From Eledone cirrhosa (taxonomy: Eukaryota), in the NCBI GenBank assembly GCA_964016885.1, contig OZ024744.1, forward strand, positions 132,804,001 through 132,868,000: DNA of 64,000 bases. The letters are read 5' to 3'. Below are positions 26,975 through 64,000 of this stretch, in pieces. The number at the start of each line of letters is the position of its first letter. Position 1 is the stretch's first letter. The position numbers were made by a program, and so were the translations under genes. Below the pieces are notes generated by a model. The model did not search any database and was not told the DNA's origin. It saw only the letters and a program-made list of their open reading frames with translations.

Positions 26975-27147
26975 GGGCTTAAGTTAAGTTGGGGCTAAGT
27001 TAAGTTGGGGTTAAGTCAAGTTGGAAGTTGTGGTTGAGTGAAGTTGGGGTTAAGTTAAGTTGGGGTTGAGTGAAGTTGGGGTTAAGTTAAGTTGGGGTTG
27101 AGTTACGTTGGGGTTGAGTGAAGTTGGGGTTAAGTTAAGTTGGGGTT
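26975..27147 (-). repeat. 173-bp inverted satellite island, copy 4 (TACG allele, upstream AAGCTT)
   Basis: Same junctions and length as copy 1, located 4944 bp after copy 3. Confidence 0.97.
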
Positions 27148-31124: not shown

Positions 31125-31297
31125 GGGCTTAAGTTAAGTTGGGGCTAAGTTAAGTTGGGGTTAAGTCAAGTTGGAAGTTGTGGTTGAGTGAAGTTGGGGT
31201 TAAGTTAAGTTGGGGTTGAGTGAAGTTGGGGTTAAGTTAAGTTGGGGTTGAGTTAAGTTGGGGTTGAGTGAAGTTGGGGTTAAGTTAAGTTGGGGTT
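31125..31297 (-). repeat. 173-bp inverted satellite island, copy 5 (TAAG allele)
   Basis: Same junctions and length as copy 2. It shares the downstream markers AACATAACTGC, CAAGTTAACTC and AATACC with copies 2 and 6. Confidence 0.97.
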
Positions 31298-39300: not shown

Positions 39301-42090
39301 TTAACCCCAACTTAACTTATCCCCAACTTAACTTAACCCCAACTTAACTTAAACCCAACTTAACTTAACCCCAACTTAAACTATCCCCAACTTAACTTAA
39401 CCCCAACTTAACTCAACACCAACTTAACTCAACCCCAACTTAACTCAACCCCAATTTAACTCAACCCCAACTTAACTCAACCCCAACTTAACTTAACCCC
39501 AACTTAACTGAACCCTAACTTAACTTAACCCCGACTTAACATAACCCCGACTTAACTTAACCCCAACTTAACTTAACCCCAACTTAACTTAACCCCAACT
39601 TAACTTAACCCCAACTTAATTTAACCCCATCTTAACCCCAACTTAACTTAACCCCAACTTAACTGAACCCCAACTTAAATTAACCCCAACTTAAATAAAC
39701 CCCAACTTAACTTAACCCCAACTTAACTTAACCCCAACTTAACTTAACCCCAACTTAACTCAGCCCCAACTTAACTTAGCCCCAACTTAACTTAACCCCA
39801 ACTTAACTTAACCCCAACTTAACTTAACCCCAACTTAACTTAACCCCAACTTAACTTAACCCCAATTTAACTTAAACCCAACTTAACTTAACCCCAACTT
39901 AAATTATCCACAACTTAACTTATCCCCAACTTAACTTAACCCCAACTTAACTTAACCCCAACTTAACTTAACCCCAACTTAATTTAACCCCAACTTAACT
40001 TAACCTCAACTTAACTTAACCCCAACTTAACTTAACCCCATCTTAACTTAACCCCAACTTAACTTAACCCCAACTTAACTTAACCCCAACTTAAATTAAC
40101 CCCAACTTAACTTAACCCCAACTTAACTTAACCCCCACTTAACTTAACCCCAACTTAACTTAACCCCAACTTAACTTAACCCCAACTTAACCCCAACTTA
40201 ACTGAACCCCAACTTAACTTAACCCCAACTTAACTCAACCCCAACTTAACTTAACCCCAACTTAACTCAGCCCCAACTTAACTCAGCCCCAACTTAACTT
40301 AGCCCCAACTTAACTCAACCCCAACTTAACTCAACCCCAATTTAACTCAACCCCAAGTTAACTCAACCCCAACTTAACTTAACCCCAACTTAACTGAACC
40401 CTAACTTAACTTAACCCCGACTTAAATTAAGCCCAACTTAACTTAACCCCAACTTAACTCAGCCCCAACTTAACTTAGCCCTAACTTAACTTAACCCCAA
40501 CTTAACTTAACCCCAACTTAATTAACCCCAACTTAAATTAACCCCAACTTAACTTAATACCAACTTAACGTAACCCCATCTTAAATAAACCCCAACTTAA
40601 ATTAACCCCAACTTAACTTAACCCCAACTTAACTTAACCCCAACTTAACTCAGCCCCAACTTAACTTAGCCCCAACTTAACTTAACCCCAACTTAACTTA
40701 ACCCCAACTTAACTTAACCCCAACTTAACTTATCCCCAACTTAACTTAACCCCAACTTAACTTAAACCCAACTTAACTTAACCCCAACTTAAACTATCCC
40801 CAACTTAACTTATCCCCAACTTAACTTAACCCCAACTTAACTTAACCCCAACTTAACTTAACCCCAACTTAATTTAACCCCAACTTAACTTAACCTCAAC
40901 TTAACTTAACCCCAACTTAACTTAACCCCAACTTAACTTAACCCCAACTTAAATTAGCCCCAACTTAACTTAACCCCAACTTAAATTAACCCCAACTTAA
41001 CTTAACCCCAACTTAACTTAACCCCGACTTAAATTAACCCCAACTTAACTTAACCCCAACTTAACTTAACCCCAACTTAACTTAACCACAAATTAACTTA
41101 ACCCCAACTTAACTTAACCCCAACTTAACTTAACCCCAACTTAACTTAACCCCAACTTAACTTAACCCCAACTTAACTTAAACCTAACTTAACTTAACCC
41201 CAACTTAACCCCAACTTAACTTGACCCCAACTTAACTTAACCCCAACTTAACTCAACCCCAACTTAACTTAACCCCAACTTCACTCAGCCCCAACTTAAC
41301 TCAGCCCCAACTTAACTTAGCCCCAACTTAACTTAACACCAACTTAACTTAACCCCAACTTAACCCCAACTTAACTTAACCCCAATTTAACTCAACCCCA
41401 ACTTAACTTAACCCCAACTTAACTCAGCCCCAACTTAACTCAGCCCCAACTTAACTTAGCCCCAACTTAACTTAACACCAACTTAACTTAACCCCAACTT
41501 AACTTAACCCCAACTTAACTTAACCCCAACTTAACTTATCCCCAACTTAACTGAACCCCAACTTAACTTAACCCCAACTTAATATAACCCCAACTTAACT
41601 TAACCCCAACTTAACTCAACCCCAACTTAACTTAACCCCAACTTAACTTAACCCCAACTTAATTAACCCCAACTTAAATTAACCCCAACTTAACTTAACA
41701 CCAACTTAACGTAACCCCAACTTAACTTAACCCCAACTTAACTTAAACCTAACTTATCTTAACCCCAACTTAACCCCAACTTAACTTGACCCCAACTTAA
41801 CTTAACCCCAACTTAACTCAACCCCAACTTAACTTAACCCCAACTTAACTCAGCCCCAACTTAACTCAGCCCCAACTTAACTTAGCCCCAACTTAACTTA
41901 ACCCCAACTTAACTTAACCCCAACTTAACTTAACCCCAACTTAACTCATCCCCAACTTAACTGAACCCCAACTTAACTGAACCCCAACTTAAATTAACCC
42001 CAACTTAACTTAACCCCAACTTAACTTAACCCCAACTTAACTCAACACCAACTTAACTCAACCCCAACTTAACTCAACCCCAATTTAACT
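33362..42090 (+). repeat. Tandem duplication, period 3786 bp, whose second copy contains a nested 1413-bp duplication
   Basis: CATAACCCCG 34341/38127, AACCCCCACT 34931/38717 and TATCCCC 33421/37207 are all offset by +3786. Past the nested duplication the offset becomes 5199 = 3786+1413 (TAACTTATCT 36551/41750). Confidence 0.85.
37985..40810 (+). repeat. Nested tandem duplication, period 1413 bp
   Basis: TTATCCAC 38491/39904, AACATA 38125/39538 and CTATCCCC 39381/40794 are all offset by +1413. Edges are approximate. Confidence 0.88.
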
Positions 42091-42249
42091 TAACCCCAAC
42101 TTAACTTAACCCCATCTTAACTTAACCCCAACTTAACTTAACCCCAACTTAACTTAACCCCAACTTAATTTAACCCCAACTTAACTTAACCTCAACTTAA
42201 CTTAACCCCAACTTAACTTAACCCCATCTTAACTTAACCCCAACTTAAC

Positions 42250-44400
42250 TTAACCCCAACTTAACTTAACCCCAACTTAACCCCAACTTAACTTGACCCC
42301 AACTTAACTTAACCCCAACTTAACTCAACCCCAACTTAACTTAACCCCAACTTAACTCAGCCCCAACTTAACTCAGCCCCAACTTAACTTAGCCCCAACT
42401 TAACTCAACCCCAACTTAACTCAACCCCAATTTAACTCAACCCCAAGTTAACTCAACCCCAACTTAACTTAACCCCAACTTAACTGAACCCTAACTTAAC
42501 TTAACCCCGACTTAAATTAAGCCCAACTTAACTTAACCCCAACTTAACTCAGCCCCAACTTAACTTAGCCCTAACTTAACTTAACCCCAACTTAACTTAA
42601 CCCCAACTTAATTAACCCCAACTTAAATTAACCCCAACTTAACTTAATACCAACTTAACGTAACCCCATCTTAAATAAACCCCAACTTAAATTAACCCCA
42701 ACTTAACTTAACCCCAACTTAACTTAACCCCAACTTAACTCAGCCCCAACTTAACTTAGCCCCAACTTAACTTAACCCCAACTTAACTTAACCCCAACTT
42801 AACTTAACCCCAACTTAACTTATCCCCAACTTAACTTAACCCCAACTTAACTTAAACCCAACTTAACTTAACCCCAACTTAAACTATCCCCAACTTAACT
42901 TATCCCCAACTTAACTTAACCCCAACTTAACTTAACCCCAACTTAACTTAACCCCAACTTAATTTAACCCCAACTTAACTTAACCTCAACTTAACTTAAC
43001 CCCAACTTAACTTAACACCAACTTAACTTAACCCCAACTTAAATTAGCCCCAACTTAACTTAACCCCAACTTAAATTAACCCCAACTTAACTTAACCCCA
43101 ACTTAACTTAACCCCGACTTAAATTAACCCCAACTTAACTTAACCCCAACTTAACTTAACCCCAACTTAACTTAACCACAAATTAACTTAACCCCAACTT
43201 AACTTAACCCCAACTTAACTTAACCCCAACTTAACTTAACCCCAACTTAACTTAACCCCAACTTAACTTAAACCTAACTTAACTTAACCCCAACTTAACC
43301 CCAACTTAACTTGACCCCAACTTAACTTAACCCCAACTTAACTCAACCCCAACTTAACTTAACCCCAACTTCACTCAGCCCCAACTTAACTCAGCCCCAA
43401 CTTAACTTAGCCCCAACTTAACTTAACACCAACTTAACTTAACCCCAACTTAGCCCCAACTTAACTTAACCCCAATTTAACTCAACCCCAACTTAACTTA
43501 ACCCCAACTTAACTCAGCCCCAACTTAACTCAGCCCCAACTTAACTTAGCCCCAACTTAACTTAACACCAACTTAACTTAACCCCAACTTAACTTAACCC
43601 CAACTTAACTTAACCCCAACTTAACTTATCCCCAACTTAACTGAACCCCAACTTAACTTAACCCCAACTTAATATAACCCCAACTTAACTTAACCCCAAC
43701 TTAACTCAACCCCAACTTAACTTAACCCCAACTTAACTTAACCCCAACTTAATTAACCCCAACTTAAATTAACCCCAACTTAACTTAACACCAACTTAAC
43801 GTAACCCCAACTTAACTTAACCCCAACTTAACTTAAACCTAACTTATCTTAACCCCAACTTAACCCCAACTTAACTTGACCCCAACTTAACTTAACCCCA
43901 ACTTAACTCAACCCCAACTTAACTTAACCCCAACTTAACTCAGCCCCAACTTAACTCAGCCCCAACTTAACTTAGCCCCAACTTAACTTAACCCCAACTT
44001 AACTTAACCCCAACTTAACTTAACCCCAACTTAACTTATCCCCAACTTAACTGAACCCCAACTTAACTGAACCCCAACTTAAATTAACCCCAACTTAACT
44101 TAACCCCAACTTAACTTAACCCCAACTTAACTCAACACCAACTTAACTCAACCCCAACTTAACTCAACCCCAATTTAACTCAACCCCAACTTAACTCAAC
44201 CCCAACTTAACTTAACCCCAACTTAACTGAACCCTAACTTAACTTAACCCCGACTTAACTTAACCCCGACTTAACTTAACCCCAACTTAACTTAACCCCA
44301 ACTTAACTTAACCCCAACTTAACTTAACCCCAACTTAATTTAACCCCATCTTAACCCCAACTTAACTTAACCCCAACTTAACTGAACCCCAACTTAAATT
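42250..44400 (+). repeat. Further copy of the block at about 34960-37110 (2090 bp after the 40-42 kb copy)
   Basis: CCCCAAGTTA 40351/42441 and AACTTATCTT 41751/43841 are offset by +2090. Edges are approximate. Confidence 0.8.
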
Positions 44401-44462
44401 AGCCCCAACTTAACTTAACCCCAACTTAACTTAACCCCAACTTAACTTAACCCCAACTTAAC

Positions 44463-47400
44463 TTAACCCCAACTTAACTTAACCCCAATTTAACTTAAAC
44501 CCAACTTAACTTAACCCCAACTTAAATTATCCCCAACTTAACTTATCCCCAACTTAACTTAACCCCAACTTAACTTAACCCCAACTTAACTTAACCCCAA
44601 CTTAATTTAACCCCAACTTAACTTAACCTCAACTTAACTTAACCCCAACTTAACTTAACCCCATCTTAACTTAACCCCAACTTAACTTAACCCCAACTTA
44701 ACTTAACCCCAACTTAAATTAACCCCAACTTAACTTAACCCCAACTTAACTTAACCCCGACTTAACTTAACCCCAACTTAACTTAACCCCAACTTAACTT
44801 AACCCCAACTTAACCCCAACTTCACTTGACCCCAACTTAACTTAACCCCAACTTAACTCAACCCCAACTTAACTTAACCCCAACTTAACTCAGCCCCAAC
44901 TTAACTCAGCCCCAACTTAACTTAGCCCCAACTTAACTTAACACCAACTTAACTTAACCCCACCTTAACTTAACCCCAACTTAACTTAACCCCAACTTAA
45001 CTTATCCCCAACTTAACTGAACCCCAACTTAACTTAACCCCAACTTAATATAACCCCAACTTAACTTAACCCCAACTTAACTCAACCCCAACTTAAATTA
45101 ACCCCAACTTAACTTAACCCCAACTTAAGTTAACCCCAACTTAATTAACCCCAACTTAAATTAACCCCAACTTAACTTAACACCAACTTAACGTAACCCC
45201 AACTTAATTTAACCCCAACTTAAATTAACCCCAACTTAACTTGCCCCCAACTTAACTTACCCCCAACGTAACTTAACCCCAACTTAATTTAACCCCAACT
45301 TAATTTAACCCCAACTTAACTTAACCCCAAATTAACTCAACCCCAACTTAACTCAACCCCAACTTAACTTAACCCCAACTTAACTTAACCCCAACTTAAC
45401 TTAACCACAAATTAACTTAGCCCCAACTTAAATTAACCCCAACTTAACTCAACCACAACTTAACTTAACCCCGACCTAACTTAACCCCAACTTAACTTAA
45501 CCCCAACTTAACTTAACCCCAACTTCACTCAACCTCAACTTAACTCAACCCCAACTTAACCCCAACTTAACTTAACCCCAACTTAAATTAACCACAAAGT
45601 TAACTTAACCCCAATTTAAATTAACCCCAACTTAACTTAACCCCAACTTAACATAACCACCACTTAATTAACCCCAACTTAACTCAACCCCAACTTAACT
45701 TAACCCCGACTTAACTTAAACCTAACTTAACTTAACCCCAACTTAACCCCAACTTAACTTGACCCCAACTTAACTTGACCCCAACTTAACTTAACCTCAA
45801 CTTAACTTAACCCCAACTTAACCTAACCCCATCTTAACTTAACCCCAACTTAACTTAACCCCAACTTAACTTAACCCCAACTTAAATTAACCCCAACTTA
45901 ACTTAACCCCAACTTAACTTAACCCCGACTTAACTTAACCCCAACTTAACTTAACCCCAACTTAACTTAACCCCAACTTAACTTAACCACAAATTAACTT
46001 AACCCCAACTTAACTTAACCCCAACTTAACTTAACCCCAACTTAACTTAACCCCAACTTAACTTAACCCCAACTTAACTGAAACCTAACCTAACTTAACC
46101 CCAACTTAACCCCAATTTAACTTGACCCCAACTTAACTTAACCCCAACTTAACTCAACCCCAACTTAACTTAACCCCAACTTAACTCAGCCCCAACTTAA
46201 CTCAGCCCCAACTTAACTTAGCCACAACTTAACTTAACACCAACTTAACTTAACCCCAACTTAACTTAACCCCAACTTAACTTAACCCCAACTTAACTTA
46301 TCCCCAACTTAACGGAACCCCAACTTAACTTAACCCCAACTTAATATAACCCCAACTTAACTTAACCCCAACTTAACTCAACCCCAACTTAAATTAACCC
46401 CAACTTAACTTATCCCCAACTTAACTTAACCCCAACTTAATTAACCCCAACTTAAATTAACCCCAACTTAACTTAACACCAACTTAACGTAACCCCAATT
46501 TAACTTAACCCCAACTTAACTTAAACCTAACTTAACTTAACCCCAACTTAACCCCAACTTAACTTGACCCCAACTTAACTTAACCCCAACTTAACTCAAC
46601 CCTAACTTAACTTAACCCCAACTTAACTCAGCCCCAACTTAACTCAGCCCCAACTTAACTTAGCCCCAACTTAACTTAACACCAACTTAACTTAACCCCA
46701 ACTTAACTTATCCCCAACTTAACTGAACCCCAACTTAACTGAACCCCAACTTAAATTAACCCCAACTTAACTTAACCCCAACTTAACTTAACCCCAACTT
46801 AACTCAACACCAACTTAACTCAACCCCAACTTAACTCAACCCCAATTTAACTCAACCCCAACTTAACTCAACCCCAACTTAACTTAACCCCAACTTAACT
46901 GAACCCTAACTTAACTTAACCCCGACTTAACTTAACCCCGACTTAACTTAACCCCAACTTAACTTAACCCCAACTTAACTTAACCCCAACTTAACTTAAC
47001 CCCAACTTAATTTAACCCCATCTTAACCCCAACTTAACTTAACCCCAACTTAACTGAACCCCAACTTAACTTAACCCCAACTTAAATAAACCCCAACTTA
47101 ACTTAACCCCAACTTAACTTAACCCCAACTTAACTTAACCCCAACTTAACTCAGCCCCAACTTAACTTAGCCCCAACTTAACTTAACCCCAACTTAACTT
47201 AACCCCAACTTCACTTAACCCCAACTTAACTTAACCCCAACTTAACTTAACCCCAACTTAATTTAACCCCAACTTAACTTAACCTCAACTTAACTTAACC
47301 CCAACTTAACTTAACCCCATCTTAACTTAACCCCAACTTAACTTAACCCCAACTTAACTTAACCCCAACTTAAATTAACCCCAACTTAACTTAACCCCAA

Positions 47401-50400
47401 CTTAACTTAACCCCGACTTAACTTAACCCCAACTTAACTTAACCCCAACTTAACTTAACCCCAACTTAACCCCAACTTAACTTGACCCCAACTTAACTTA
47501 ACCCCAACTTAACTCAACCCCAACTTAACTTAACCCCAACTTAACTCAGCCCCAACTTAACTCAGCCCCAACTTAACTTAGCCCCAACTTAACTTAACAC
47601 CAACTTAACTTAACGCCACCTTAACTTAACCCCAACTTAACTTAACCCCAACTTAACTTATCCCCAACTTAACTGAACCCCAACTTAACTTAACCCCAAC
47701 TTAATATAACCCCAACTTAACTTAACCCCAACTTAACTCAACCCCAACTTAAATTAACCCCAACTTAACTTAACCCCAATTTAACTTAAACCCAACTTAA
47801 CTTAACCCCAACTTAAATTATCCCCAACTTAACTTATCCCCAACTTAACTTAACCCCAACTTAACTTAACCCCAACTTAACTTAACCCCAACTTAATTTA
47901 ACCCCAACTTAACTTAACCTCAACTTAACTTAACCCCAACTTAACTTAACCCCATCTTAACTTAACCCCAACTTAACTTAACCCCAACTTAACTTAACCC
48001 CAACTTAAATTAACCCCAACTTAACTTAACCCCAACTTAACTTAACCCCGACTTAACTTAACCCCAACTTAACTTAACCCCAACTTAACTTAACCCCAAC
48101 TTAACCCCAACTTCACTTGACCCCAACTTAACTTAACCCCAACTTAACTCAACCCCAACTTAACTTAACCCCAACTTAACTCAGCCCCAACTTAACTCAG
48201 CCCCAACTTAACTTAGCCCCAACTTAACTTAACACCAACTTAACTTAACCCCACCTTAACTTAACCCCAACTTAACTTAACCCCAACTTAACTTATCCCC
48301 AACTTAACTGAACCCCAACTTAACTTAACCCCAACTTAATATAACCCCAACTTAACTTAACCCCAACTTAACTCAACCCCAACTTAAATTAACCCCAACT
48401 TAACTTAACCCCAACTTAAGTTAACCCCAACTTAATTAACCCCAACTTAAATTAACCCCAACTTAACTTAACACCAACTTAACGTAACCCCAACTTAATT
48501 TAACCCCAACTTAAATTAACCCCAACTTAACTTGCCCCCAACTTAACTTACCCCCAACGTAACTTAACCCCAACTTAATTTAACCCCAACTTAATTTAAC
48601 CCCAACTTAACTTAACCCCAAATTAACTCAACCCCAACTTAACTCAACCCCAACTTAACTTAACCCCAACTTAACTTAACCCCAACTTAACTTAACCACA
48701 AATTAACTTAGCCCCAACTTAAATTAACCCCAACTTAACTCAACCACAACTTAACTTAACCCCGACCTAACTTAACCCCAACTTAACTTAACCCCAACTT
48801 AACTTAACCCCAACTTCACTCAACCTCAACTTAACTCAACCCCAACTTAACCCCAACTTAACTTAACCCCAACTTAAATTAACCACAAAGTTAACTTAAC
48901 CCCAATTTAAATTAACCCCAACTTAACTTAACCCCAACTTAACATAACCACCACTTAATTAACCCCAACTTAACTCAACCCCAACTTAACTTAACCCCGA
49001 CTTAACTTAAACCTAACTTAACTTAACCCCAACTTAACCCCAACTTAACTTGACCCCAACTTAACTTGACCCCAACTTAACTTAACCTCAACTTAACTTA
49101 ACCCCAACTTAACCTAACCCCATCTTAACTTAACCCCAACTTAACTTAACCCCAACTTAACTTAACCCCAACTTAAATTAACCCCAACTTAACTTAACCC
49201 CAACTTAACTTAACCCCGACTTAACTTAACCCCAACTTAACTTAACCCCAACTTAACTTAACCCCAACTTAACTTAACCACAAATTAACTTAACCCCAAC
49301 TTAACTTAACCCCAACTTAACTTAACCCCAACTTAACTTAACCCCAACTTAACTTAACCCCAACTTAACTGAAACCTAACCTAACTTAACCCCAACTTAA
49401 CCCCAATTTAACTTGACCCCAACTTAACTTAACCCCAACTTAACTCAACCCCAACTTAACTTAACCCCAACTTAACTCAGCCCCAACTTAACTCAGCCCC
49501 AACTTAACTTAGCCACAACTTAACTTAACACCAACTTAACTTAACCCCAACTTAACTTAACCCCAACTTAACTTAACCCCAACTTAACTTATCCCCAACT
49601 TAACGGAACCCCAACTTAACTTAACCCCAACTTAATATAACCCCAACTTAACTTAACCCCAACTTAACTCAACCCCAACTTAAATTAACCCCAACTTAAC
49701 TTATCCCCAACTTAACTTAACCCCAACTTAATTAACCCCAACTTAAATTAACCCCAACTTAACTTAACACCAACTTAACGTAACCCCAATTTAACTTAAC
49801 CCCAACTTAACTTAAACCTAACTTAACTTAACCCCAACTTAACCCCAACTTAACTTGACCCCAACTTAACTTAACCCCAACTTAACTCAACCCTAACTTA
49901 ACTTAACCCCAACTTAACTCAGCCCCAACTTAACTCAGCCCCAACTTAACTTAGCCCCAACTTAACTTAACACCAACTTAACTTAACCCCAACTTAACTT
50001 ATCCCCAACTTAACTGAACCCCAACTTAACTGAACCCCAACTTAAATTAACCCCAACTTAACTTAACCCCAACTTAACTTAACCCCAACTTAACTCAACA
50101 CCAACTTAACTCAACCCCAACTTAACTCAACCCCAATTTAACTCAACCCCAACTTAACTCAACCCCAACTTAACTTAACCCCAACTTAACTGAACCCTAA
50201 CTTAACTTAACCCCGACTTAACTTAACCCCGACTTAACTTAACCCCAACTTAACTTAACCCCAACTTAACTTAACCCCAACTTAACTTAACCCCAACTTA
50301 ATTTAACCCCATCTTAACCCCAACTTAACTTAACCCCAACTTAACTGAACCCCAACTTAACTTAACCCCAACTTAAATAAACCCCAACTTAACTTAACCC

Positions 50401-51070
50401 CAACTTAACTTAACCCCAACTTAACTTAACCCCAACTTAACTCAGCCCCAACTTAACTTAGCCCCAACTTAACTTAACCCCAACTTAACTTAACCCCAAC
50501 TTCACTTAACCCCAACTTAACTTAACCCCAACTTAACTTAACCCCAACTTAATTTAACCCCAACTTAACTTAACCTCAACTTAACTTAACCCCAACTTAA
50601 CTTAACCCCATCTTAACTTAACCCCAACTTAACTTAACCCCAACTTAACTTAACCCCAACTTAAATTAACCCCAACTTAACTTAACCCCAACTTAACTTA
50701 ACCCCGACTTAACTTAACCCCAACTTAACTTAACCCCAACTTAACTTAACCCCAACTTAACCCCAACTTAACTTGACCCCAACTTAACTTAACCCCAACT
50801 TAACTCAACCCCAACTTAACTTAACCCCAACTTAACTCAGCCCCAACTTAACTCAGCCCCAACTTAACTTAGCCCCAACTTAACTTAACACCAACTTAAC
50901 TTAACGCCACCTTAACTTAACCCCAACTTAACTTAACCCCAACTTAACTTATCCCCAACTTAACTGAACCCCAACTTAACTTAACCCCAACTTAATATAA
51001 CCCCAACTTAACTTAACCCCAACTTAACTCAACCCCAACTTAAATTAACCCCAACTTAACTTAACCCCAA
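44463..51070 (+). repeat. Near-identical tandem duplication, period 3291 bp
   Basis: Private markers recur at +3291: TTCACTTGAC 44821/48112, AACGGAACCC 46311/49602 and TAACGCCACC 47611/50902. The junction overlap is about 47754-47779. Confidence 0.93.
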
Positions 51071-52970
51071 CTTAACTTAACCCCAACTTAATTAACCCCA
51101 ACTTAAATTAACCCCAACTTAACTTAACACCAACTTAACGTAACCCCAACTTAATTTAACCCCAACTTAAATTAACCCCAACTTAACTTGCCCCCAACTT
51201 AACTTACCCCCAACGTAACTTAACCCCAACTTAATTTAACCCCAACTTAATTTAACCCCAACTTAACTTAACCCCAACTTAATTAACCCCAACTTAAATT
51301 AACCCCAACTTAACTTAATACCAACTTAACGTAACCCCATCTTAAATAAACCCCAACTTAAATTAACCCCAACTTAACTTAACCCCAACTTAACTTAACC
51401 CCAACTTAACTCAGCCCCAACTTAACTTAGCCCCAACTTAACTTAACCCCAACTTAACTTAACCCCAACTTAACTTAACCCCAACTTAACTTATCCCCAA
51501 CTTAACTTAACCCCAACTTAACTTAAACCCAACTTAACTTAACCCCAACTTAAACTATCCCCAACTTAACTTATCCCCAACTTAACTTAACCCCAACTTA
51601 ACTTAACCCCAACTTAACTTAACCCCAACTTAATTTAACCCCAACTTAACTTAACCTCAACTTAACTTAACCCCAACTTAACTTAACCCCAACTTAACTT
51701 AACCCCAACTTAAATTAGCCCCAACTTAACTTAACCCCAACTTAAATTAACCCCAACTTAACTTAACCCCAACTTAACTTAACCCCGACTTAAATTAACC
51801 CCAACTTAACTTAACCCCAACTTAACTTAACCCCAACTTAACTTAACCACAAATTAACTTAACCCCAACTTAACTTAACCCCAACTTAACTTAACCCCAA
51901 CTTAACTTAACCCCAACTTAACTTAACCCCAACTTAACTTAAACCTAACTTAACTTAACCCCAACTTAACCCCAACTTAACTTGACCCCAACTTAACTTA
52001 ACCCCAACTTAACTCAACCCCAACTTAACTTAACCCCAACTTCACTCAGCCCCAACTTAACTCAGCCCCAACTTAACTTAGCCCCAACTTAACTTAACAC
52101 CAACTTAACTTAACCCCAACTTAACCCCAACTTAACTTAACCCCAATTTAACTCAACCCCAACTTAACTTAACCCCAACTTAACTCAGCCCCAACTTAAC
52201 TCAGCCCCAACTTAACTTAGCCCCAACTTAACTTAACACCAACTTAACTTAACCCCAACTTAACTTAACCCCAACTTAACTTAACCCCAACTTAACTTAT
52301 CCCCAACTTAACTGAACCCCAACTTAACTTAACCCCAACTTAATATAACCCCAACTTAACTTAACCCCAACTTAACTCAACCCCAACTTAACTTAACCCC
52401 AACTTAACTTAACCCCAACTTAATTAACCCCAACTTAAATTAACCCCAACTTAACTTAACACCAACTTAACGTAACCCCAACTTAACTTAACCCCAACTT
52501 AACTTAAACCTAACTTAACTTAACCCCAACTTAACCCCAACTTAACTTGACCCCAACTTAACTTAACCCCAACTTAACTCAACCCCAACTTAACTTAACC
52601 CCAACTTAACTCAGCCCCAACTTAACTCAGCCCCAACTTAACTTAGCCCCAACTTAACTTAACCCCAACTTAACTTAACCCCAACTTAACTTAACCCCAA
52701 CTTAACTTATCCCCAACTTAACTGAACCCCAACTTAACTCAACACCAACTTAACTCAACCCCAACTTAACTCAACCCCAATTTAACTCAACCCCAACTTA
52801 ACTCAACCCCAACTTAACTTAACCCCAACTTAACTGAACCCTAACTTAACTTAACCCCGACTTAACTTAACCCCGACTTAACTTAACCCCAACTTAACTT
52901 AACCCCAACTTAACTTAACCCCAACTTAACTTAACCCCAACTTAATTTAACCCCATCTTAACCCCAACTT

Positions 52971-53064
52971 AACTTAACCCCAACTTAACTGAACCCCAAC
53001 TTAAATTAACCCCAACTTAAATAAACCCCAACTTAACTTAACCCCAACTTAACTTAACCCCAAC
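52971..53064 (+). repeat. Left copy of the 94-bp direct repeat flanking the large inverted block
   Basis: Identical by eye to 55241-55334, with the same ordered variants AACTG, AAATT and AAATA. Confidence 0.8.
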
Positions 53065-53196
53065 GTAACTCAACCCCAACTTAACTTAACCCCAACTTCA
53101 CTCAACCCCAACTTAACTTAACCCCAACTTCACTCAACCACAACTTCCAACTTGACTTAACCCCAACTTAACTTAGCCCCAACTTAACTTAAGCCC
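53056..53196 (+). repeat. Eighth island copy, re-inverted (now C-rich on +) and truncated to 141 bp
   Basis: It contains CCACAACTTCCAACTTGACTT, CAACGTAACTC and AAGCCC|TAAGTCGGGG, which are exact reverse complements of the island markers. The last two island monomers (32 bp) are missing. Confidence 0.93.
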
Positions 53197-55240
53197 TAAG
53201 TCGGGGTTAAGTTAAGTTGGCGTTAAGTTAAGTTAGGCTTAACTTAAGTTGGGGTTCAGTTAAGTTGGGGGGTAAGTTAAGTTGGGGGTAAGTTAAGTTG
53301 GGGTTAAGTTAAGTTGCGGTTAAGTTGGGGTTAAGTTAAGTTAGGGTTAAGTTAAGTTGGGGTTGAGTTAAGTTGGGGTTAATTAAGTGGTGGTTATGTT
53401 AAGTTGGGGTTAAGTTAAGTTGGGGTTAATTTAAATTGGGGTTAAGTTAACTTTGTGGTTAATTTAAGTTGGGGTTAAGTTAAGTTGGGGTTAAGTTGGG
53501 GTTGAGTTAAGTTGGGGTTGAGTGAAGTTGGGGTTAAGTTAAGTTGGGGTTAAGTTAAGTTGGGGTTAAGTTAGGTCGGGGTTAAGTTAAGTTGTGGTTG
53601 AGTTAAGTTGGGGTTAATTTAAGTTGGGGCTAAGTTAATTTGTGGTTAAGTTAAGTTGGGGTTAAGTTAAGTTGGGGTTAAGTTAAGTTGGGGTTGAGTT
53701 AAGTTGGGGTTGAGTTAATTTGGGGTTAAGTTAAGTTGGGGTTAAATTAAGTTGGGGTTAAATTAAGTTGGGGTTAAGTTACGTTGGGGGTAAGTTAAGT
53801 TGGGGGCAAGTTAAGTTGGGGTTAATTTAAGTTGGGGTTAAATTAAGTTGGGGTTACGTTAAGTTGGTGTTAAGTTAAGTTGGGGTTAATTTAAGTTGGG
53901 GTTAATTAAGTTGGGGTTAAGTTAAGTTGGGGTTAAGTTAAGTTGGGGTTAATTTAAGTTGGGGTTATATTAAGTTGGGGTTCAGTTAAGTTGGGGATAA
54001 GTTAAGTTGGGGTTAAGTTAAGTTGGGGTTAAGTTAAGGTGGGGTTAAGTTAAGTTGGTGTTAAGTTAAGTTGGGGCTAAGTTAAGTTGGGGCTGAGTTA
54101 AGTTGGGGCTGAGTTAAGTTGGGGTTAAGTTAAGTTGGGGTTGAGTTAAGTTGGGGTTAAGTTAAGTTGGGGTCAAGTTAAGTTGGGGTTAAGTTGGGGT
54201 TAAGTTAAGTTGGGGTTAAGTTAAGTTGGGGTTAAGTTAAGTCGGGGTTAAGTTAAGTTGGGGTTAAGTTAAGTTGGGGTTAATTTAAGTTGGGGTTAAG
54301 TTAAGTTGGGGTTAAGTTAAGTTGGGGTTAAGTTAAGATGGGGTTAAGTTAAGTTGGGGTTAAGTTAAGTTGAGGTTAAGTTAAGTTGGGGTTAAATTAA
54401 GTTGGGGTTAAGTTAAGTTGGGGTTAAGTTAAGTTGGGGTTAAGTTAAGTTGGGGATAAGTTAAGTTGGGGATAATTTAAGTTGGGGTTAAGTTAAGTTG
54501 GGTTTAAGTTAAGTTGGGGTTAAGTTAAGTTGGGGTTAAGTTAAGTTGGGGTTGAGTTAAGTTGGGGTTAATTAAGTGGTGGTTATGTTAAGTTGGGGTT
54601 AAGTTAAGTTGGGGTTAATTTAAATTGGGGTTAAGTTAACTTTGTGGTTAATTTAAGTTGGGGTTAAGTTAAGTTGGGGTTAAGTTGGGGTTGAGTTAAG
54701 TTGAGGTTGAGTGAAGTTGGGGTTAAGTTAAGTTGGGGTTAAGTTAAGTTGGGGTTAAGTTAGGTCGGGGTTAAGTTAAGTTGTGGTTGAGTTAAGTTGG
54801 GGTTAATTTAAGTTGGGGCTAAGTTAATTTGTGGTTAAGTTAAGTTGGGGTTAAGTTAAGTTGGGGTTAAGTTAAGTTGGGGTTGAGTTAAGTTGGGGTT
54901 GAGTTAATTTGGGGTTAAGTTAAGTTGGGGTTAAATTAAGTTGGGGTTAAATTAAGTTGGGGTTAAGTTACGTTGGGGGTAAGTTAAGTTGGGGGCAAGT
55001 TAAGTTGGGGTTAATTTAAGTTGGGGTTAAATTAAGTTGGGGTTACGTTAAGTTGGTGTTAAGTTAAGTTGGGGTTAATTCAAGTTGGGGTTAATTAAGT
55101 TGGGGTTAACTTAAGTTGGGGTTAAGTTAAGTTGGGGTTAATTTAAGTTGGGGTTGATTTAAGTTGGGGTTAAGTTAAGTTGGGGTTATATTAAGTTGGG
55201 GTTAAGTTAAGTTGGGGTTCAGTTAAGTTGGGGATAAGTT
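53197..55240 (-). repeat. 2044-bp inverted (G-rich on +) satellite block
   Basis: Continuous TTAAGTTAAGTTGGGG repeats run from TAAGTCGGGG (53197) to the palindromic junction GATAAGTT|AACTTAAC (55240/55241). Confidence 0.98.
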
Positions 55241-55334
55241 AACTTAACCCCAACTTAACTGAACCCCAACTTAAATTAACCCCAACTTAAATAAACCCCA
55301 ACTTAACTTAACCCCAACTTAACTTAACCCCAAC
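55241..55334 (+). repeat. Right copy of the 94-bp direct repeat flanking the large inverted block
   Basis: Matches 52971-53064 at offset 2270 and begins exactly at the strand-switch point. Confidence 0.8.
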
Positions 55335-57220
55335 TTAACTTATCCCCAACTTAACTGAACCCCAACTTAACTGAACCCCAACTTAAATTAACCCCAACTT
55401 AACTTAACCCCAACTTAACTTAACCCCAACTTAACTCAACACCAACTTAACTCAACCCCAACTTAACTCAACCCCAATTTAACTCAACCCCAACTTAACT
55501 CAACCCCAACTTAACTTAACCCCAACTTAACTGAACCCTAACTTAACTTAACCCCGACTTAACTTAACCCCGACTTAACTTAACCCCAACTTAACTTAAC
55601 CCCAACTTAACTTAACCCCAACTTAACTTAACCCCAACTTAATTTAACCCCATCTTAACCCCAACTTAACTTAACCCCAACTTAACTGAACCCCAACTTA
55701 AATAAACCCCAACTTAACTTAACCCCAAGTTAACTTAACCCCAACTTAACTTAACCCCAACTTAACTCAGCCCCAACTTAACTTAGCCCCAACTTAACTT
55801 AACCCCAACTTAACTTAACCCCAACTTAACTTAACCCCAACTTAACTTAACCCCAACTTAACTTAACCCCAACTTAACTTAAACCCAACTTAACTTAACC
55901 CCAACTTAAATTATCCCCAACTTAACTTATCCCCAACTTAACTTAACCCCAACTTAACTTAACCCCAACTTAACTTAACCCCAACTTAATTTAACCCCAA
56001 CTTAACTTAACCTCAACTTAACTTAACCCCAACTTAACTTAACCCCATCTTAACTTAACCCCAACTTAACTTAACCCCAACTTAACTTAACCCCAACTTA
56101 AATTAACCCCAACTTAACTTAACCCCAACTTAACTTAACCCCGACTTAACTTAACCCCAACTTAACTTAACCCCAACTTAACTTAACCCCAACTTAACCC
56201 CAACTTAACTTGACCCCAACTTAACTTAACCCCAACTTAACTCAACCCCAACTTAACTTAACCCCAACTTAACTCAGCCCCAACTTAACTCAGCCCCAAC
56301 TTAACTTAGCCCCAACTTAACTTAACACCAACTTAACTTAACCCCACCTTAACTTAACCCCAACTTAACTTAACCCCAACTTAACTTATCCCCAACTTAA
56401 CTGAACCCCAACTTAACTTAACCCCAACTTAATATAACCCCAACTTAACTTAACCCCAACTTAACTCAACCCCAACTTAAATTAACCCCAACTTAACTTA
56501 ACCCCAACTTAACTTAACCCCAACTTAATTAACCCCAACTTAAATTAACCCCAACTTAACTTAACACCAACTTAACGTAACCCCAACTTAATTTAACCCC
56601 AACTTAAATTAACCCCAACTTAACTTGCCCCCAACTTAACTTACCCCCAACGTAACTTAACCCCAACTTAATTTAACCCCAACTTAACTTAACCCCAAAT
56701 TAACTCAACCCCAACTTAACTCAACCCCAACTTAACTTAACCCCAACTTAACTTAACCCCAACTTAACTTAACCACAAATTAACTTAGCCCCAACTTAAA
56801 TTAACCCCAACTTAACTCAACCACAACTTAACTTAACCCCGACCTAACTTAACCCCAACTTAACTTAACCCCAACTTAACTTAACCCCAACTTCACTCAG
56901 CCCCAACTTAACTCAACCCCAACTTAACCCCAACTTAACTTAACCCCAACTTAAATTAACCACAAAGTTAACTTAACCCCAATTTAAATTAACCCCAACT
57001 TAACTTAACCCCAACTTAACATAACCACCACTTAATTAACCCCAACTTAACTCAACCCCAACTTAACTTAACCCTAACTTAACTTAACCCCAACTTAACC
57101 GCAACTTAACTTAACCCCAACTTAACTTACCCCCAACTTAACTTACCCCCAACTTAACTGAACCCCAACTTAAGTTAAGCCTAACTTAACTTAACGCCAA
57201 CTTAACTTAACCCCGACTTA

Positions 57221-57393
57221 GGGCTTAAGTTAAGTTGGGGCTAAGTTAAGTTGGGGTTAAGTCAAGTTGGAAGTTGTGGTTGAGTGAAGTTGGGGTTAAG
57301 TTAAGTTGGGGTTGAGTGAAGTTGGGGTTAAGTTAAGTTGGGGTTGAGTTAAGTTGGGGTTGAGTGAAGTTGGGGTTAAGTTAAGTTGGGGTT
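57221..57393 (-). repeat. 173-bp inverted satellite island, copy 6 (TAAG allele)
   Basis: Same junctions and length, with flanking markers as in copies 2 and 5. Confidence 0.97.
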
Positions 57394-60300
57394 AACCCCA
57401 ACTTAACTTAACCCCAACTTAACTTAACCCCAACTTAACTTAACCCCAACTTAACTTAACCCCAACATAACTTAACCCCAACTTAAATTAACCCCAACTT
57501 AACTTAAACTCAACTTAACTAACCAACTTAACTTAACCCCAACTTAACTTAACCCCAACTTAACTTAACCCCAACTTAACTTAACCCCAACTTAACTTAA
57601 CCCCAACTTAAATTAACCCCAACTTAACTTAACCCCAACTTAACTTAACCCCGACTTAACTTAACCCCAACTTAACTTAACCCCAACTTAACTTAGCCCC
57701 AACTTAACTTAGCCCCAACTTAACTTAGCCCCAACTTAACTTAACCCCAACTTAACATAACCGCACCTTAACTTAACCTCAACTTAACATAACTGCAACT
57801 TAACTTAACCCCAACTTAACTTAACCCCAACTTAACTCAACACCAACTTAACTCAACCCCAACTTAACTCAACCCCAATTTCACTCAACCCCAAGTTAAC
57901 TCAACCCCAACTTAACTTAACCCCAACTTAACTGAACCCTAACTTAACTTAACCCCGACTTAAATTAAGCCCAACTTAACTTAACCCCAACTTAACTCAG
58001 CCCCAACTTAACTTAGCCCTAACTTAACTTAACCCCAACTTAACTTAACCCCAACTTAATTAACCCCAACTTAAATTAACCCCAACTTAACTTAATACCA
58101 ACTTAACGTAACCCCATCTTAAATAAACCCCAACTTAAATTAACCCCAACTTAACTTAAACCCAACTTAACTTAACCCCAACTTAACTCAGCCCCAACTT
58201 AACTTAGCCCCAACTTAACTTAACCCCAACTTAACTTAACCCCAACTTAACTTAACCCCAACCTAACTTATCCCCAACTTAACTTAACCCCAACTTAACT
58301 TAAACCCAACTTAACTTAACCCCAACTTAAACTATCCCCAACTTAACTTATCCCCAACTTAACTTAACCCCAACTTAACTTAACCCCAACTTAACTTAAC
58401 CCCAACTTAATTTAACCCCAACTTAACTTAACCTCAACTTAACTTAACCCCAACTTAACTTAACCCCAACTTAACTTAACCCCAACTTAAATTAGCCCCA
58501 ACTTAACTTAACCCCAACTTAAATTAACCCCAACTTAACTTAACCCCAACTTAACTTAACCCCGACTTAAATTAACCCCAACTTAACTTAACCCCAACTT
58601 AACTTAACCCCAACTTAACTTAACCACAAATTAACTTAACCCCAACTTAACTTAACCCCAACTTAACTTAACCCCAACTTAACTTAACCCCAACTTAACT
58701 TAAACCTAACTTAACTTAACCCCAACTTAACCCCAACTTAACTTGACCCCAACTTAACTTAACCCCAACTTAACTCAACCCCAACTTAACTTAACCCCAA
58801 CTTCACTCAGCCCCAACTTAACTCAGCCCCAACTTAACTTAGCCCCAACTTAACTTAACACCAACTTAACTTAACCCCAACTTAACCCCAACTTAACTTA
58901 ACCCCAACTTAACTCAACCCCAACTTAACTTAACCCCAACTTAACTCAGCCCCAACTTAACTCAGCCCCAACTTAACTTAGCCCCAACTTAACTTAACAC
59001 CAACTTAACTTAACCCCAACTTAACTTAACCCCAACTTAACTTAACCCCAACTTAACTTATCCCCAACTTAACTGAACCCCAACTTAACTTAACCCCAAC
59101 TTAATATAACCCCAACTTAACTTAACCCCAACTTAACTCAACCCCAACTTAAATTAACCCCAACTTAACTTAACCCCAACTTAACTTAACCCCAACTTAA
59201 TTAACCCCAACTTAAATTAACCCCAACTTAACTTAACACCAACTTAACGTAACCCCAACTTAACTTAACCCCAACTTAACTTAAACCTAACTTAACTTAA
59301 CCCCAACTTAACCCCAACTTAACTTGACCCCAACTTAACTTAACCCCAACTTAACTCAACCCCAACTTAACTTAACCCCAACTTAACTCAGCCCCAACTT
59401 AACTCAGCCCCAACTTAACTTAGCCCCAACTTAACTTAACACCAACTTAACTTAACCCCAACTTAACTTAACCCCAACTTAACTTAACCCCAACTTAACT
59501 TATCCCCAACTTAACTGAACCCCAACTTAACTGAACCCCAACTTAAATTAACCCCAACTTAACTTAACCCCAACTTAACTTAACCCCAACTTAACTCAAC
59601 ACCAACTTAACTCAACCCCAACTTAACTCAACCCCAATTTAACTCAACCCCAACTTAACTCAACCCCAACTTAACTTAACCCCAAATTAACTGAACCCTA
59701 ACTTAACTTAACCCCGACTTAACTTAACCCCGACTTAACTTAACCCCAACTTAACTTAACCCCAACTTAACTTAACCCCAACTTAACTTAACCCCAACTT
59801 AATTTAACCCCATCTTAACCCCAACTTAACTTAACCCCAACTTAACTGAACCCCAACTTAAATTAACCCCAACTTAAATAAACCCCAACTTAACTTAACC
59901 CCAACTTAACTTAACCCCAACTTAACTTAACCCCAACTTAACTCAGCCCCAACTTAACTTAGCCCCAACTTAACTTAACCCCAACTTAACTTAACCCCAA
60001 CTTAACTTAACCCCAACTTAACTTAACCCCAACTTAACTTAACCCCAATTTAACTTAAACCCAACTTAACTTAACCCCAACTTAAATTATCCCCAACTTA
60101 ACTTATCCCCAACTTAACTTAACCCCAACTTAACTTAACCCCAACTTAACTTAACCCCAACTTAATTTAACCCCAACTTAACTTAACCTCAACTTAACTT
60201 AACCCCAACTTAACTTAACCCCATCTTAACTTAACCCCAACTTAACTTAACCCCAACTTAACTTAACCCCAACTTAAATTAACCCCAACTTAACTTAACC

Positions 60301-61572
60301 CCAACTTAACTTAACCCCGACTTAACTTAACCCCAACTTAACTTAACCCCAACTTAACTTAACCCCAACTTAACCCCAACTTAACTTGACCCCAACTTAA
60401 CTTAACCCCAACTTAACTTAAACTTAACTTAACTTAACCCCAACTTAACCCCAACTTAACTTGACCCCAACTTAACTTAACCCCAACTTAACTCAACCCC
60501 AACTTAACTTAACCCCAACTTAACTCAGCCCCAACTTAACTCAGCCCCAACTTAACTTAGCCCCAACTTAACTTAACACCAACTTAACTTAACCCCAACT
60601 TAACTTAACCCCAACTTAACTTAACCCCAACTTAACTTATCCCCAACTTAACTGAACCCCAACTTAACTCAACCCCAACTTAAATTAACCCCAACTTAAC
60701 TTAACCCCAACTTAACTTAACCCCAACTTAATTAACCCCAACTTAAATTAACCCCAACTTAACTTAACACCAACTTAACGTAACCCCAACTTAATTTAAC
60801 CCCAACTTAAATTAACCCCAACTTAACTTGCCCCCAACTTAACTTACCCCCAACTTAACTTAACCCCAACTTAATTTAACCCCAACTTAATTTAACCCCA
60901 ACTTAACTTAAACCCAACTTAACTTAACCCCAACTTAACTTAACCCCAAATTAACTCAACCCCAACTTAACTCAACCCCAACTTAACTTAACCACAAATT
61001 AAATTAGCCCCAACTTAAATTAACCCCAACTTAACTCAACCACAACTTAACTTAACCCCGACTTAACTTAACCCCACCTTAACTTAACCTCAACTTAACT
61101 TAACTGCAACTTAACTTAACCCCAACTTAACTTAACCCCAACTTAACTCAACACCAACTTAACTCAACCCCAACTTAACTCAACGCCAATTTAACTCAAC
61201 CCCAACTTAACTCAACCCCAACTTAACTTAACCCCGACTTAAATTAACCCCGACTTAACTTAACCCCAACTTAACTCAACCCCAACTTAACTTAACCCCA
61301 ACTTAAATTAACCACAAAGTTAACTTAACCCCAATTTAAATTAACCCCAACTTAACTTAACCCCAACTTAACATAACCACCACTTAATTAACCCCAACTT
61401 AACTCAACCCCAACTTAACTTAACCCTAACTTAACTTAACCCCAACTTAACCGCAACTTAACTTAACCCCAACTTAACTTACCCCCAACTTAACTTACCC
61501 CCAACTTAACTGAACCCCAACTTAAGTTAAGCCTAACTTAACTTAACGCCAACTTAACTTAACCCCGACTTA

Positions 61573-61745
61573 GGGCTTAAGTTAAGTTGGGGCTAAGTTA
61601 AGTTGGGGTTAAGTCAAGTTGGAAGTTGTGGTTGAGTGAAGTTGGGGTTAAGTTAAGTTGGGGTTGAGTGAAGTTGGGGTTAAGTTAAGTTGGGGTTGAG
61701 TTAAGTTGGGGTTGAGTGAAGTTGGGGTTAAGTTAAGTTGGGGTT
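61573..61745 (-). repeat. 173-bp inverted satellite island, copy 7 (TAAG allele, short shared flanks)
   Basis: Same junctions and length. The usual flanks are present only from about 61270 to about 61950. Confidence 0.97.
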
Positions 61746-62940
61746 AACCCCAACTTAACTTAACCCCAACTTAACTTAACCCCAACTTAACTTAACCCCA
61801 ACTTAACTTAACCCCAACATAACTTAACCCCAACTTAAATTAACCCCAACTTAACTTAAACTCAACTTAACTAACCAACTTAACTTAACCCCAACTTAAC
61901 TTAACCCCAACTTAACTTAACCCCAACTTAACTTAACCCCAACTTAACTTAACCCCGACTTAAATTAACCCCGACTTAACTTAACCCCAACTTAACTCAA
62001 CCCCAACTTAACTTAACCCCAACTTAACTTAACCCCAACTTAACTTAACCCCAACTTAAATTAACCCCAACTTAACTTAAACTCAACTTAACTAACCAAC
62101 TTAACTTAACCCCAACTTAACTTGACCCCAACTTAACTTAACCCCAACTTAACTTAAACCCAACTTAACTTAACCCCAACTTAACTTAACCCCAACTTAA
62201 CTTAACCCCAACTTAACCCCAAATTAAATTAACCTCAACTTAACTTAACCCCAACTTAACTTAGCCCCAACTTAACTTAGCCCCAACTTAACTTAGCCCC
62301 AACTTAACTTAACCCCAACTTAACTTAACCGCACCTTAACTTAACCTCAACTTAACTTAACTGCAACTTAACTTAACCCCAACTTAACTTAACCCCAACT
62401 TAACTCAAAACCAACTTAACTCAACCCCAACTTAACTCAACCCCAATTTAACTCAACCCCAACTTAACTCAACCCCAACTTAACTTAACCCCAACTTAAC
62501 TGAACCCTAACTTAACTTAACCCCAACTTAACTTAACCCCAACTTAATTTAACCCCAACTTAACTTAACCTCAACTTAACTTAACCCCAACTTAACTTAA
62601 CCCCATCTTAACTTAACCCCAACTTAACTTAACCCCAACTTAACTTAACCCCAACTTAAATTAACCCCAACTTAACTTAACCCCAACTTAACTTAACCCC
62701 GACTTAACTTAACCCCAACTTAACTTAACCCCAACTTAACTTAACCCCAACTTAACCCCAACTTAACTTGACCCCAACTTAACTTAACCCCAACTTAACT
62801 CAACCCCAACTTAACTTAACCCCAACTTAACTCAGCCCCAACTTAACTCAGCCCCAACTTAACTTAGCCCCAACTTAACTTAACACCAACTTAACTTAAC
62901 CCCACCTTAACTTAACCCCAACTTAACTTAAGCCCAACTT

Positions 62941-64000
62941 AACTTATCCCCAACTTAACTGAACCCCAACTTAACTTAACCCCAACTTAATATAACCCCA
63001 ACTTAACTTAACCCCAACTTAAATCAACCCCAACTTAAATTAACCCCAACTTAACTTAACCCCAACTTAAGTTAACCCCAACTTAATTAACCCCAACTTG
63101 AATTAACCCCATCTTAACTTAACACCAACTTAACGTAACCCCAACTTAATTTAACCCCAACTTAAATTAACCCCAACTTAACTTGCCCCCAACTTAACTT
63201 ACCCCCAACGTAACCTAACCCCAACTTAATTTAACCCCAACTTAATTTAACCCCAACTTAACTTAACCCCAAATTAACTCAACCCCAACTTAACTCAACC
63301 CCAACTTAACTTAACCCCAACTTAACTTAACCCCAACTTAACTTAACCACAAATTAACTTAGCCCCAACTTAAATTAACCCCAACTTAACTCAACCACAA
63401 CTTAACTTAACCCCGACCTAACTTAACCCCAACTTAACTTAACCCCAACTTAACTTAACCCCAACTTCACTCAACCTCAACTTAACTCAACCCCAACTTA
63501 ACCCCAACTTAACTTAACCCCAACTTAAATTAACCACAAAGTTAACTTAACCCCAATTTAAATTAACCCCAACTTAACTTAACCCCAACTTAACATAACC
63601 ACCACTTAATTAACCCCAACTTAACTCAACCCCAACTTAACTTAACCCCAACTTAACTTAACCCCAACTTAACTTAAACCCAACTTAACTTAACCCCAAC
63701 TTAAATTATCCCCAACTTAACTTATCCCCAACTTAACTTAACCCCAACTTAACTTAACCCCAACTTAACTTAACCCCAACTTAATTTAACCCCAACTTAA
63801 CTTAACCTCAACTTAACTTAACCCCAACTTAACTTAACCCCATCTTAACTTAACCCCAACTTAACTTAACCCCAACTTAACTTAACCCCAACTTAAATTA
63901 ACCCCAACTTAACTTAACCCCAACTTAACTTAACCCCGACTTAACTTAACCCCAACTTAACTTAACCCCAACTTAACTTAACCCGAACTTAACCCCAACT
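62941..64000 (+). repeat. Forward-orientation partner of the inverted block (reverse complement of 54181-55240)
   Basis: Matching coordinates sum to 118181, for example the G of AACTTGAATT at 63100 pairs with the C at 55081. The rare AAATCAACC, AAGTT and TTGAATT variants are shared. I noticed three mismatches in 1060 bp. Confidence 0.93.

What the first reader, a model, noticed from the sequence alone, without database searches (positions are those of the whole stretch)
53056..55240. 2.2-kb inverted insertion whose left breakpoint is hidden inside a re-inverted island
Seen: the visible strand switch at 53196/53197 is only the old island junction read backwards. The inverted segment actually continues left to about 53056 as a 141-bp C-rich island copy lacking its last two monomers, and it joins the forward array with no strand change. 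Inference: the island acted as a homology entry point that let a forward strand invade in the opposite direction and copy about 2 kb backwards before exiting at an AAGTT|AACTT dyad. Small inversions would thus seed larger ones, a self-propagating route to polarity switches in satellites.
Basis: partly seen in the sequence, partly recalled or inferred. Interest (0 to 1): 0.8.

Follow-up and report, generated by a model that had tools for sequence, protein, structure and literature searches.

The report
Tiny satellite inversions seed larger ones
Inside a long array of a 16-letter repeat, a 2.2-kb backwards copy of a nearby stretch has one end hidden in an older, tiny backwards "island", and a roughly 580-kb backwards block of the same array ends the same way, which suggests small inversions likely act as stepping stones for larger ones.

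Summary
Window 53056-55242 is an inverted copy of 62939-65141, which is still intact 7.7 kb downstream (3 substitutions, one 16-bp indel). The left breakpoint lies 141 bp inside a 173-bp island copy; the right is a 4-bp TTAA dyad. Donor-private alleles argue against a chimera; reads could not be checked. In 1.65 Mb of the array, 437 strand switches give only two large opposite-polarity blocks. The second, about 575-585 kb, has the same anatomy: GTTAAC dyad at one end, breakpoint 37-45 bp inside an island at the other. Its first and last 3-kb units are each other's nearest relatives, as if a 3-kb seed was later enlarged. The mechanism works like the known inverted-repeat BIR/MMBIR route to human DUP-TRP/INV-DUP. 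Whether the island was entry or exit is unresolved; n = 2.

The parts
52969..53064 (+). Target duplication, left copy (96 bp, 6 monomers)
   Evidence: Identical to 55239-55334, with different bases on both sides
53056..53064 (.). Hidden left breakpoint: 9-bp exact overlap between recipient and island copy, in monomer register (39 of 41 bp identical over 53024-53064)
53056..53196 (-). 141-bp partial island copy (reads C-rich on +), lacking the island's last two monomers
   Evidence: Exact reverse complement of donor island ending at 65141
53193..53206 (-). Visible strand switch = pre-existing island junction read backwards
53197..55242 (-). 2.05-kb inverted copy of the array upstream of the donor island, including a 1,189-bp internal duplication that the donor also has
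55239..55242 (.). Right breakpoint: TTAA microhomology at the AAGTTAACTT dyad
   Evidence: TTAA (4 bp) is the longest word shared by the consensus array and its reverse complement
55239..55334 (+). Target duplication, right copy (96 bp)
62939..64000 (+). Donor, intact; continues outside the window to 65141 (G000:C28:132,869,141), ending inside the island at about 65001
   Evidence: 3 substitutions + one 16-bp indel over 2,187 bp; best of 63 island units, -5.75 against -43.35 for the next
35280..37250 (+). Sibling unit resembling the pre-insertion (empty) site
   Evidence: The monomer junction rebuilt by removing the insert occurs only here and at the insert's right flank
9462..9634 (-). Complete 173-bp island (others start at 13088, 22031, 26975, 31125, 57221, 61573)
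1..64000 (+). 16-bp satellite array; part of an array spanning at least 128.0-135.3 Mb of contig C28 (sampled)

Best explanation
The segment is an inverted copy of the array 7.7-9.9 kb downstream, flanked by a 96-bp target duplication, and it was likely made by two template switches during break or fork repair, with the island likely serving as the homology entry point. Shown: copy, donor, duplication and both junction sequences. Inferred: a C-rich 3' end at 53064 paired with the donor's G-rich island, the only nearby sequence of opposite polarity (39 of 41 bp match). It copied 141 bp of island, crossed the island's old junction and ran about 2 kb backwards. It then rejoined its own locus 96 bp behind the exit through TTAA. 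An island halves the problem of making an inversion: it supplies a homologous join and a ready-made +/- junction, so only one new 4-bp joint is needed. The ~580-kb plus-oriented block that contains this window likely began as a 3-kb insert of the same kind and was then enlarged by recombination with a homologous unit.
For: Unique near-identical donor, still in place. 96-bp duplication; by chance 36 of 29,582 monomer starts (0.12%) carry this 96-mer, and 0.8% give any duplication of 80 bp or more. Empty-site sibling. In-register join at the island. Census of 1,646,000 bases: 437 switches, 6 with both sides over 600 bp, 2 of these at or beside scaffold gaps; the other 4 are the ends of two events, each one GTTAAC dyad plus one island junction. 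Genome-wide, the young island junction continues G-rich at only 2 places: this insert and C28:133,355,368. Islands are 1.9% of the local array, so with uniform breakpoints P is about 0.0015 for 2 of 2 events (about 0.04 at the roughly 10% density of older regions; my arithmetic). The big block's flanks are mutual best relatives. Its first and last 3-kb units differ by 3 substitutions and one 32-bp indel, closest among 99 units, and share a marker found exactly twice in the genome. Same two-step model in human CGRs (PMC11293582).
Against: Only two events. Direction of synthesis is not readable from the product. In the big event the exact overlap on the recipient side is only 9 bp, and the join sits 37-45 bp into the island, which fits 'return at first chance' better than invasion. 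The donor island was the third downstream, not the nearest. Joining the big block's two parts crosses two scaffold gaps with an 806-kb contig between them; it rests on 7.1-7.6-kb exact overlaps of the contig ends and the shared marker. No empty site or target duplication was found for the big event. No read evidence. C18 islands formed with two TTAA dyads and no older island junction, so islands are not required for small inversions.
Confidence: 0.55

Rival explanations
1. Island as exit, not entry: the G-rich strand primed on the donor through TTAA, copied about 2 kb in the wrong polarity, and could re-anneal to its own locus only after copying into the first island it met.
For: Gives the identical product. 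Both events run from a dyad to the first island within one inter-island unit (2.05 kb and 3.03 kb). The big event joins only 37-45 bp into the island with 9 bp of exact overlap.
Against: It needs initiation on 4 bp of microhomology about 8 kb away. In the small event the recipient 3' end matches the island's terminal 41 bp right up to the island edge. The published model puts homology first (PMC11293582).
Confidence: 0.3
2. The island location is coincidence: both junctions are ordinary microhomology joins that happened to fall in islands.
For: n = 2. Any in-register join in this satellite has a 9-bp overlap. Islands reach about 10% of sequence in older regions.
Against: Islands are 1.9% and 1.0% of the two young-island domains. 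A non-island breakpoint would create a new +/- junction; genome-wide searches found these only at small islands (4 places).
Confidence: 0.08
3. Assembly artefact (chimeric or fold-back read).
For: No reads examined. The contig starts about 63 kb to the left with low-quality sequence.
Against: At 3 of 3 substitutions the donor allele is single-copy in the sequence searched while the insert holds the shared allele (3, 84 and 100 copies); the insert has its own private deletion. A clean 96-bp duplication and an empty-site sibling are not expected from a chimera. No gap lies near the insert.
Confidence: 0.04
4. Simple in-place reciprocal inversion between an island and the array.
For: One breakpoint is in an island, as such an event would give.
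Against: The missing two island monomers and the GGGGTTAACCCC exit are not at the right end; the donor is intact elsewhere; the target is duplicated.
Confidence: 0.02

Closest known systems
DUP-TRP/INV-DUP rearrangements (inverted-repeat BIR plus NHEJ/MMBIR; PMC11293582, abstract and Introduction read)
   Same: One junction inside an inverted repeat pair, synthesis in reverse, second junction by microhomology; copy gain with an inverted segment.
   Different: Here the inverted repeat is a 173-bp internal inversion of a tandem satellite, paired with the array itself. Scale is 2 kb. The two gains (96 bp and 2.19 kb) are separate, with no triplicated core.
[quoted passage not shown]
   Same: Duplicated fragment inserted in inverted orientation through two junctions with 1-3 bp microhomology; a duplication at the insertion site is described in one family.
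   Different: Those are unique-sequence, often interchromosomal events of kb to Mb size; no pre-existing inversion supplies a junction.
ODIRA fold-back inverted amplification (PMC10766186, passages read)
   Same: Inverted junction at a short dyad.
   Different: ODIRA uses closely spaced inverted repeats and gives palindromes. Here the template is about 9.8 kb from the exit point (pre-insertion distance). The C18 islands look more like local fold-backs.
Strand switches in human satellite arrays (chr1 active HOR 1.7-Mb inversion; over 200 breakpoints in HSat3B5 and beta satellite; 10.1101/2021.07.12.452052, 10.64898/2026.07.22.740206, PMC13684623, passages read)
   Same: [quoted passage not shown]
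   Different: The passages seen describe and count switches; none traces a large inversion's breakpoint into a smaller, older inversion.

Membership tests
DUP-TRP/INV-DUP | One junction within an inverted repeat pair | tested here: met
   Left junction joins forward array to an island copy in register, 39 of 41 bp identical
DUP-TRP/INV-DUP | Second junction with microhomology or blunt join | tested here: met
   TTAA overlap at 55239-55242
DUP-TRP/INV-DUP | Inverted triplicated segment embedded in a duplication | tested here: not met
   Gains are a 96-bp duplication and a separate 2.19-kb inverted duplicate with single-copy sequence between; it works like this class but is not a member
DUP-TRP/INV-DUP | Formed by BIR after fork collapse | not testable with these tools
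   Needs genetics or de novo events
Templated inverted insertion (FoSTeS/MMBIR-type) | Donor retained, copy inserted elsewhere through two junctions | tested here: met
   Donor 62939-65141 intact
Templated inverted insertion (FoSTeS/MMBIR-type) | Microhomology at junctions, with duplication or deletion at the site | tested here: met
   9-bp and 4-bp overlaps; 96-bp duplication
ODIRA / fold-back inverted duplication | Inverted arm copies the sequence immediately adjacent to the junction | tested here: not met
   Best template is 7.7-9.9 kb away; the monomer variants on the two sides of the dyad are not mirrored
Balanced NAHR inversion | Reciprocal hybrid repeats at both ends, no copy gain | tested here: not met
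   Remainder of the island is absent at the right end; net gain of 2,270 bp

The most novel reading that the evidence does not exclude
Polarity domains of this multi-megabase satellite descend from one ancient junction through a three-step cascade. The junction was amplified as hundreds of islands; islands bridge kilobase inverted insertions; such an insertion then seeds a domain of about 580 kb. Inversions in satellites would be self-propagating, and their true breakpoints systematically hidden from strand-switch maps.
Probability: 0.4. Interest if true: 0.75.

Novelty: new variant of a known kind. Interest (0 to 1): 0.55.

Why it matters
Complete assemblies now show many strand switches and occasional megabase inversions in satellite arrays, but how a unidirectional array acquires them is open. 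This array records two stages with base-pair resolution: a fresh 2.2-kb insert with donor, target duplication and empty-site sibling, and a ~580-kb block with the same ends. It gives a concrete, testable rule: large inversions reuse an old junction, and their real breakpoint lies inside a small inversion. It also warns that visible strand switches are not breakpoints and that counting them overstates independent events: 215 of 218 +/- switches here were classed as one junction family.

Tried and rejected
Read support: the look-up of sequencing runs on the 60-bp right junction (2 sampled words) listed no run; that is no evidence either way. An early idea that +/- switches never form at TTAA dyads (0 hits) was wrong: a looser pattern found 4 places, 3 on C18 and 1 truncated island on C28. 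The +/- dyad at C28:130,474,802 was followed as a possible third large event; it is a 112-bp island. The 10 places were only partly viewed: blocks containing 4 of them were fetched (5 counting one cut by a block edge), and none had both sides over 600 bp; the rest share their sequence starts. 'The big junction is the ancestor of the islands' was rejected because young islands share interior variants and both junctions with older, more diverged islands, while the big junction keeps only young-island variants for 37 bp. 'The big block is a recent one-step inverted duplicate' found no support: the longest exact match to 133.355-134.0 Mb is 2,241 bp, with no long collinear run; 134.0-134.5 Mb was not fetched. 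No empty site was found for the big event. The monomer was not found in the literature library. Earlier-findings look-ups returned nothing.

Full report
Setting. The window is G000:C28:132,804,001-132,868,000 of a 3.0-Gb assembly. It is one tandem array of AACCCCAACTTAACTT (about 4034 copies), C-rich on the + strand, with seven 173-bp G-rich islands and one 2-kb G-rich block. Samples show the satellite from at least 128.0 to 135.3 Mb of C28, mostly G-rich on +. None of four spellings of the monomer was found in the paper library.

Observation. The reverse complement of 53056-53966 equals 8692-9602 (911 bp exact), while forward matches of the left flank end at 53064. The breakpoint is therefore in 53056-53064, and the visible switch near 53197 is the island junction read backwards. 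141 of the island's 173 bp are present. The right end is the dyad AAGTT|AACTT with a TTAA overlap at 55239-55242. TTAA is the longest word that the consensus array shares with its reverse complement.

Donor and target. With 846 kb of contiguous sequence held, the best template is 62939-65141: 3 substitutions and one 16-bp indel over 2,187 bp, score -5.75 against -43.35 for the next of 63 island units. The donor is intact, so the segment is a copy. 52969-53064 is repeated exactly at 55239-55334. 36 of 29,582 monomer starts in the plus domain carry this 96-mer, and 239 would give any duplication of 80 bp or more. The monomer junction expected after removing the insert occurs only twice in the blocks searched: at the right flank, and at 37,121 in a unit that also matches the left flank over about 1.9 kb. 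That sibling has four consensus monomers where ours has two. Net gain is 2,270 bp.

Is it real? Reads could not be examined; one search listed no run, which is no evidence. Internal evidence argues against a chimera: at all 3 substitutions the donor allele is single-copy in the 1.24 Mb searched, and the insert has the shared allele (3, 84 and 100 copies). The 16-bp deletion is private to the insert. Copy and donor have thus diverged independently, by about 0.14%.

I mapped polarity over 1,646,000 bases of the C28 array: 437 switches, of which 215 were classed as the old non-dyad junction family and 213 as GGTTAACC dyads, the two ends of islands up to about 500 bp. Six switches have more than 600 bp on both sides. 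One is a scaffold gap and one is an ordinary island 500 bp after a gap. The other four are two GTTAAC dyads (window 55240; C28:131,964,579) and two island junctions (window 53197; C28:133,355,371). Genome-wide patterns agree. The young junction continues G-rich at only these 2 places. GTTAAC dyads occur at 5 places, 3 of them small C18 islands. Other spacings gave nothing further in the satellite. These exact patterns can miss mutated junctions, and most of the array was not fetched.

The second event. At 133,355,371 the forward array enters an island, follows it for 37 bp (up to 45 bp counting ambiguous bases) and continues in register into a diverged G-rich unit for more than 600 kb with only islands. 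At 131,964,579 the G-rich array turns C-rich at a GTTAAC dyad. Between them lie 22.8 kb, a gap, an 806-kb contig with older islands, a gap, and 562 kb. The two plus-oriented contig ends share 83% of 100-mers and exact runs of 7,154 and 7,560 bp, so they are probably contiguous and the block is about 575-585 kb. Read from the other strand, it has the insert's anatomy. Its outer flanks are each other's best relatives (13-26% shared 100-mers, against 8% or less for any other bin outside these flanks for the left flank). Its first 3,027 bp (dyad to first island junction) and its last unit differ by 3 substitutions and one 32-bp indel, the closest of 99 units, and share a 44-bp marker found exactly twice in the genome. 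The simplest reading (inferred) is a 3-kb insert like the 2.2-kb one, later split by recombination with a homologous unit that brought in the rest. Two successive inversions, or excision and re-integration of a circle, give the same product and cannot be told apart here. A recent one-step duplication is not supported.

Chance. Islands make up 1.9% of the plus domain and 1.0% of 133.355-133.80 Mb. With uniform breakpoints, at least one of two ends falls in an island with probability about 0.04 per event, or about 0.0015 for both. At the roughly 10% density of older regions it is about 0.04 for both (my arithmetic). This is suggestive, with n = 2.

Which came first. Islands left of the gap and at 124.6, 130.4-131.9 and 134.7 Mb carry diverged forms of the same entry junction, the same upstream context, shared interior variants and the same exit. 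The junctions of both large events carry the young form. Islands therefore likely predate both events.

Mechanism. Shown: donor, copy, duplication, an in-register island join and a TTAA join. Inferred: two template switches. Island-first (0.55): a C-rich 3' end pairs with the island (39 of 41 bp, ending at the island edge), copies backwards and returns 96 bp behind by TTAA. Island-last (0.3): priming at TTAA, with return at the first island met; the big event's short overlap favours this. Either way the island is the bridge. Islands are not needed for small inversions: the C18 islands have two TTAA dyads and repeat a rare variant from the adjacent flank, like local fold-backs.

Known systems. 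Homology at an inverted repeat, reverse synthesis and a return by NHEJ/MMBIR is the model for DUP-TRP/INV-DUP (PMC11293582; abstract and Introduction). There is no triplication here, so it works like that class but is not a member. Inverted insertions with a duplication at the site are described in PMC5120786 (passages). ODIRA (PMC10766186, passages) does not fit the distant donor. Human arrays show many strand switches and rare megabase inversions (10.1101/2021.07.12.452052, 10.64898/2026.07.22.740206, PMC13684623; passages). Eight searches (listings only, apart from the papers named) showed no paper tracing a large satellite inversion into an older small one. Supplements were not read and may bear on this.

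Verdict. A real, well-resolved templated inverted insertion, with a second and much larger case in the same array. New variant of a known kind; interest 0.55.

Noticed in passing
G000:C28:131,987,343-132,793,742: An 806-kb contig with older islands and AT-rich interruptions sits between two 200-N gaps whose outer neighbours overlap by 7-kb exact runs; probably misplaced in scaffolding. Similar old islands end at a gap near 124.69 Mb.
   Followed up: partly
L107 (C18:10,129,106-10,129,272 and 10,132,206-372), L108 (C18:10,188,782-948): An independent island type of about 150 bp with TTAA dyads at both ends, repeating a rare variant of the adjacent flank; looks like a local fold-back copy.
   Followed up: partly
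L013-L020 (C28:132.70-132.78 Mb): Blocks of a different AT-rich repeat interrupt the array, each joined through a 128-144-bp island-like segment that has the old junction but no dyad exit.
   Followed up: no
C28:133.355-133.57 Mb (L021-L040, L081-L082): 214 kb without any island, with its own diverged unit types, directly after the big junction.
   Followed up: partly
window 31300-53050: A 22-kb island-free stretch made of truncated units and tandem duplications (offsets 1,413, 2,090, 3,291, 5,199 bp).
   Followed up: no
C28:132.79-133.355 Mb: The plus domain is layered: both ends resemble 133.58-133.73 Mb and the core resembles 133.78-133.86 Mb of the minus domain.
   Followed up: partly
L011/L012 (C28:132,793,743-132,795,500) and L122 just before 131,987,343: Degenerate, error-like satellite sequence at the contig ends next to the gaps.
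   Followed up: no
L142, L143, L147 (C28:130,418,287; 130,422,496; 130,474,802): Truncated islands that lost the old junction by deletion and now switch at a new short joint.
   Followed up: partly
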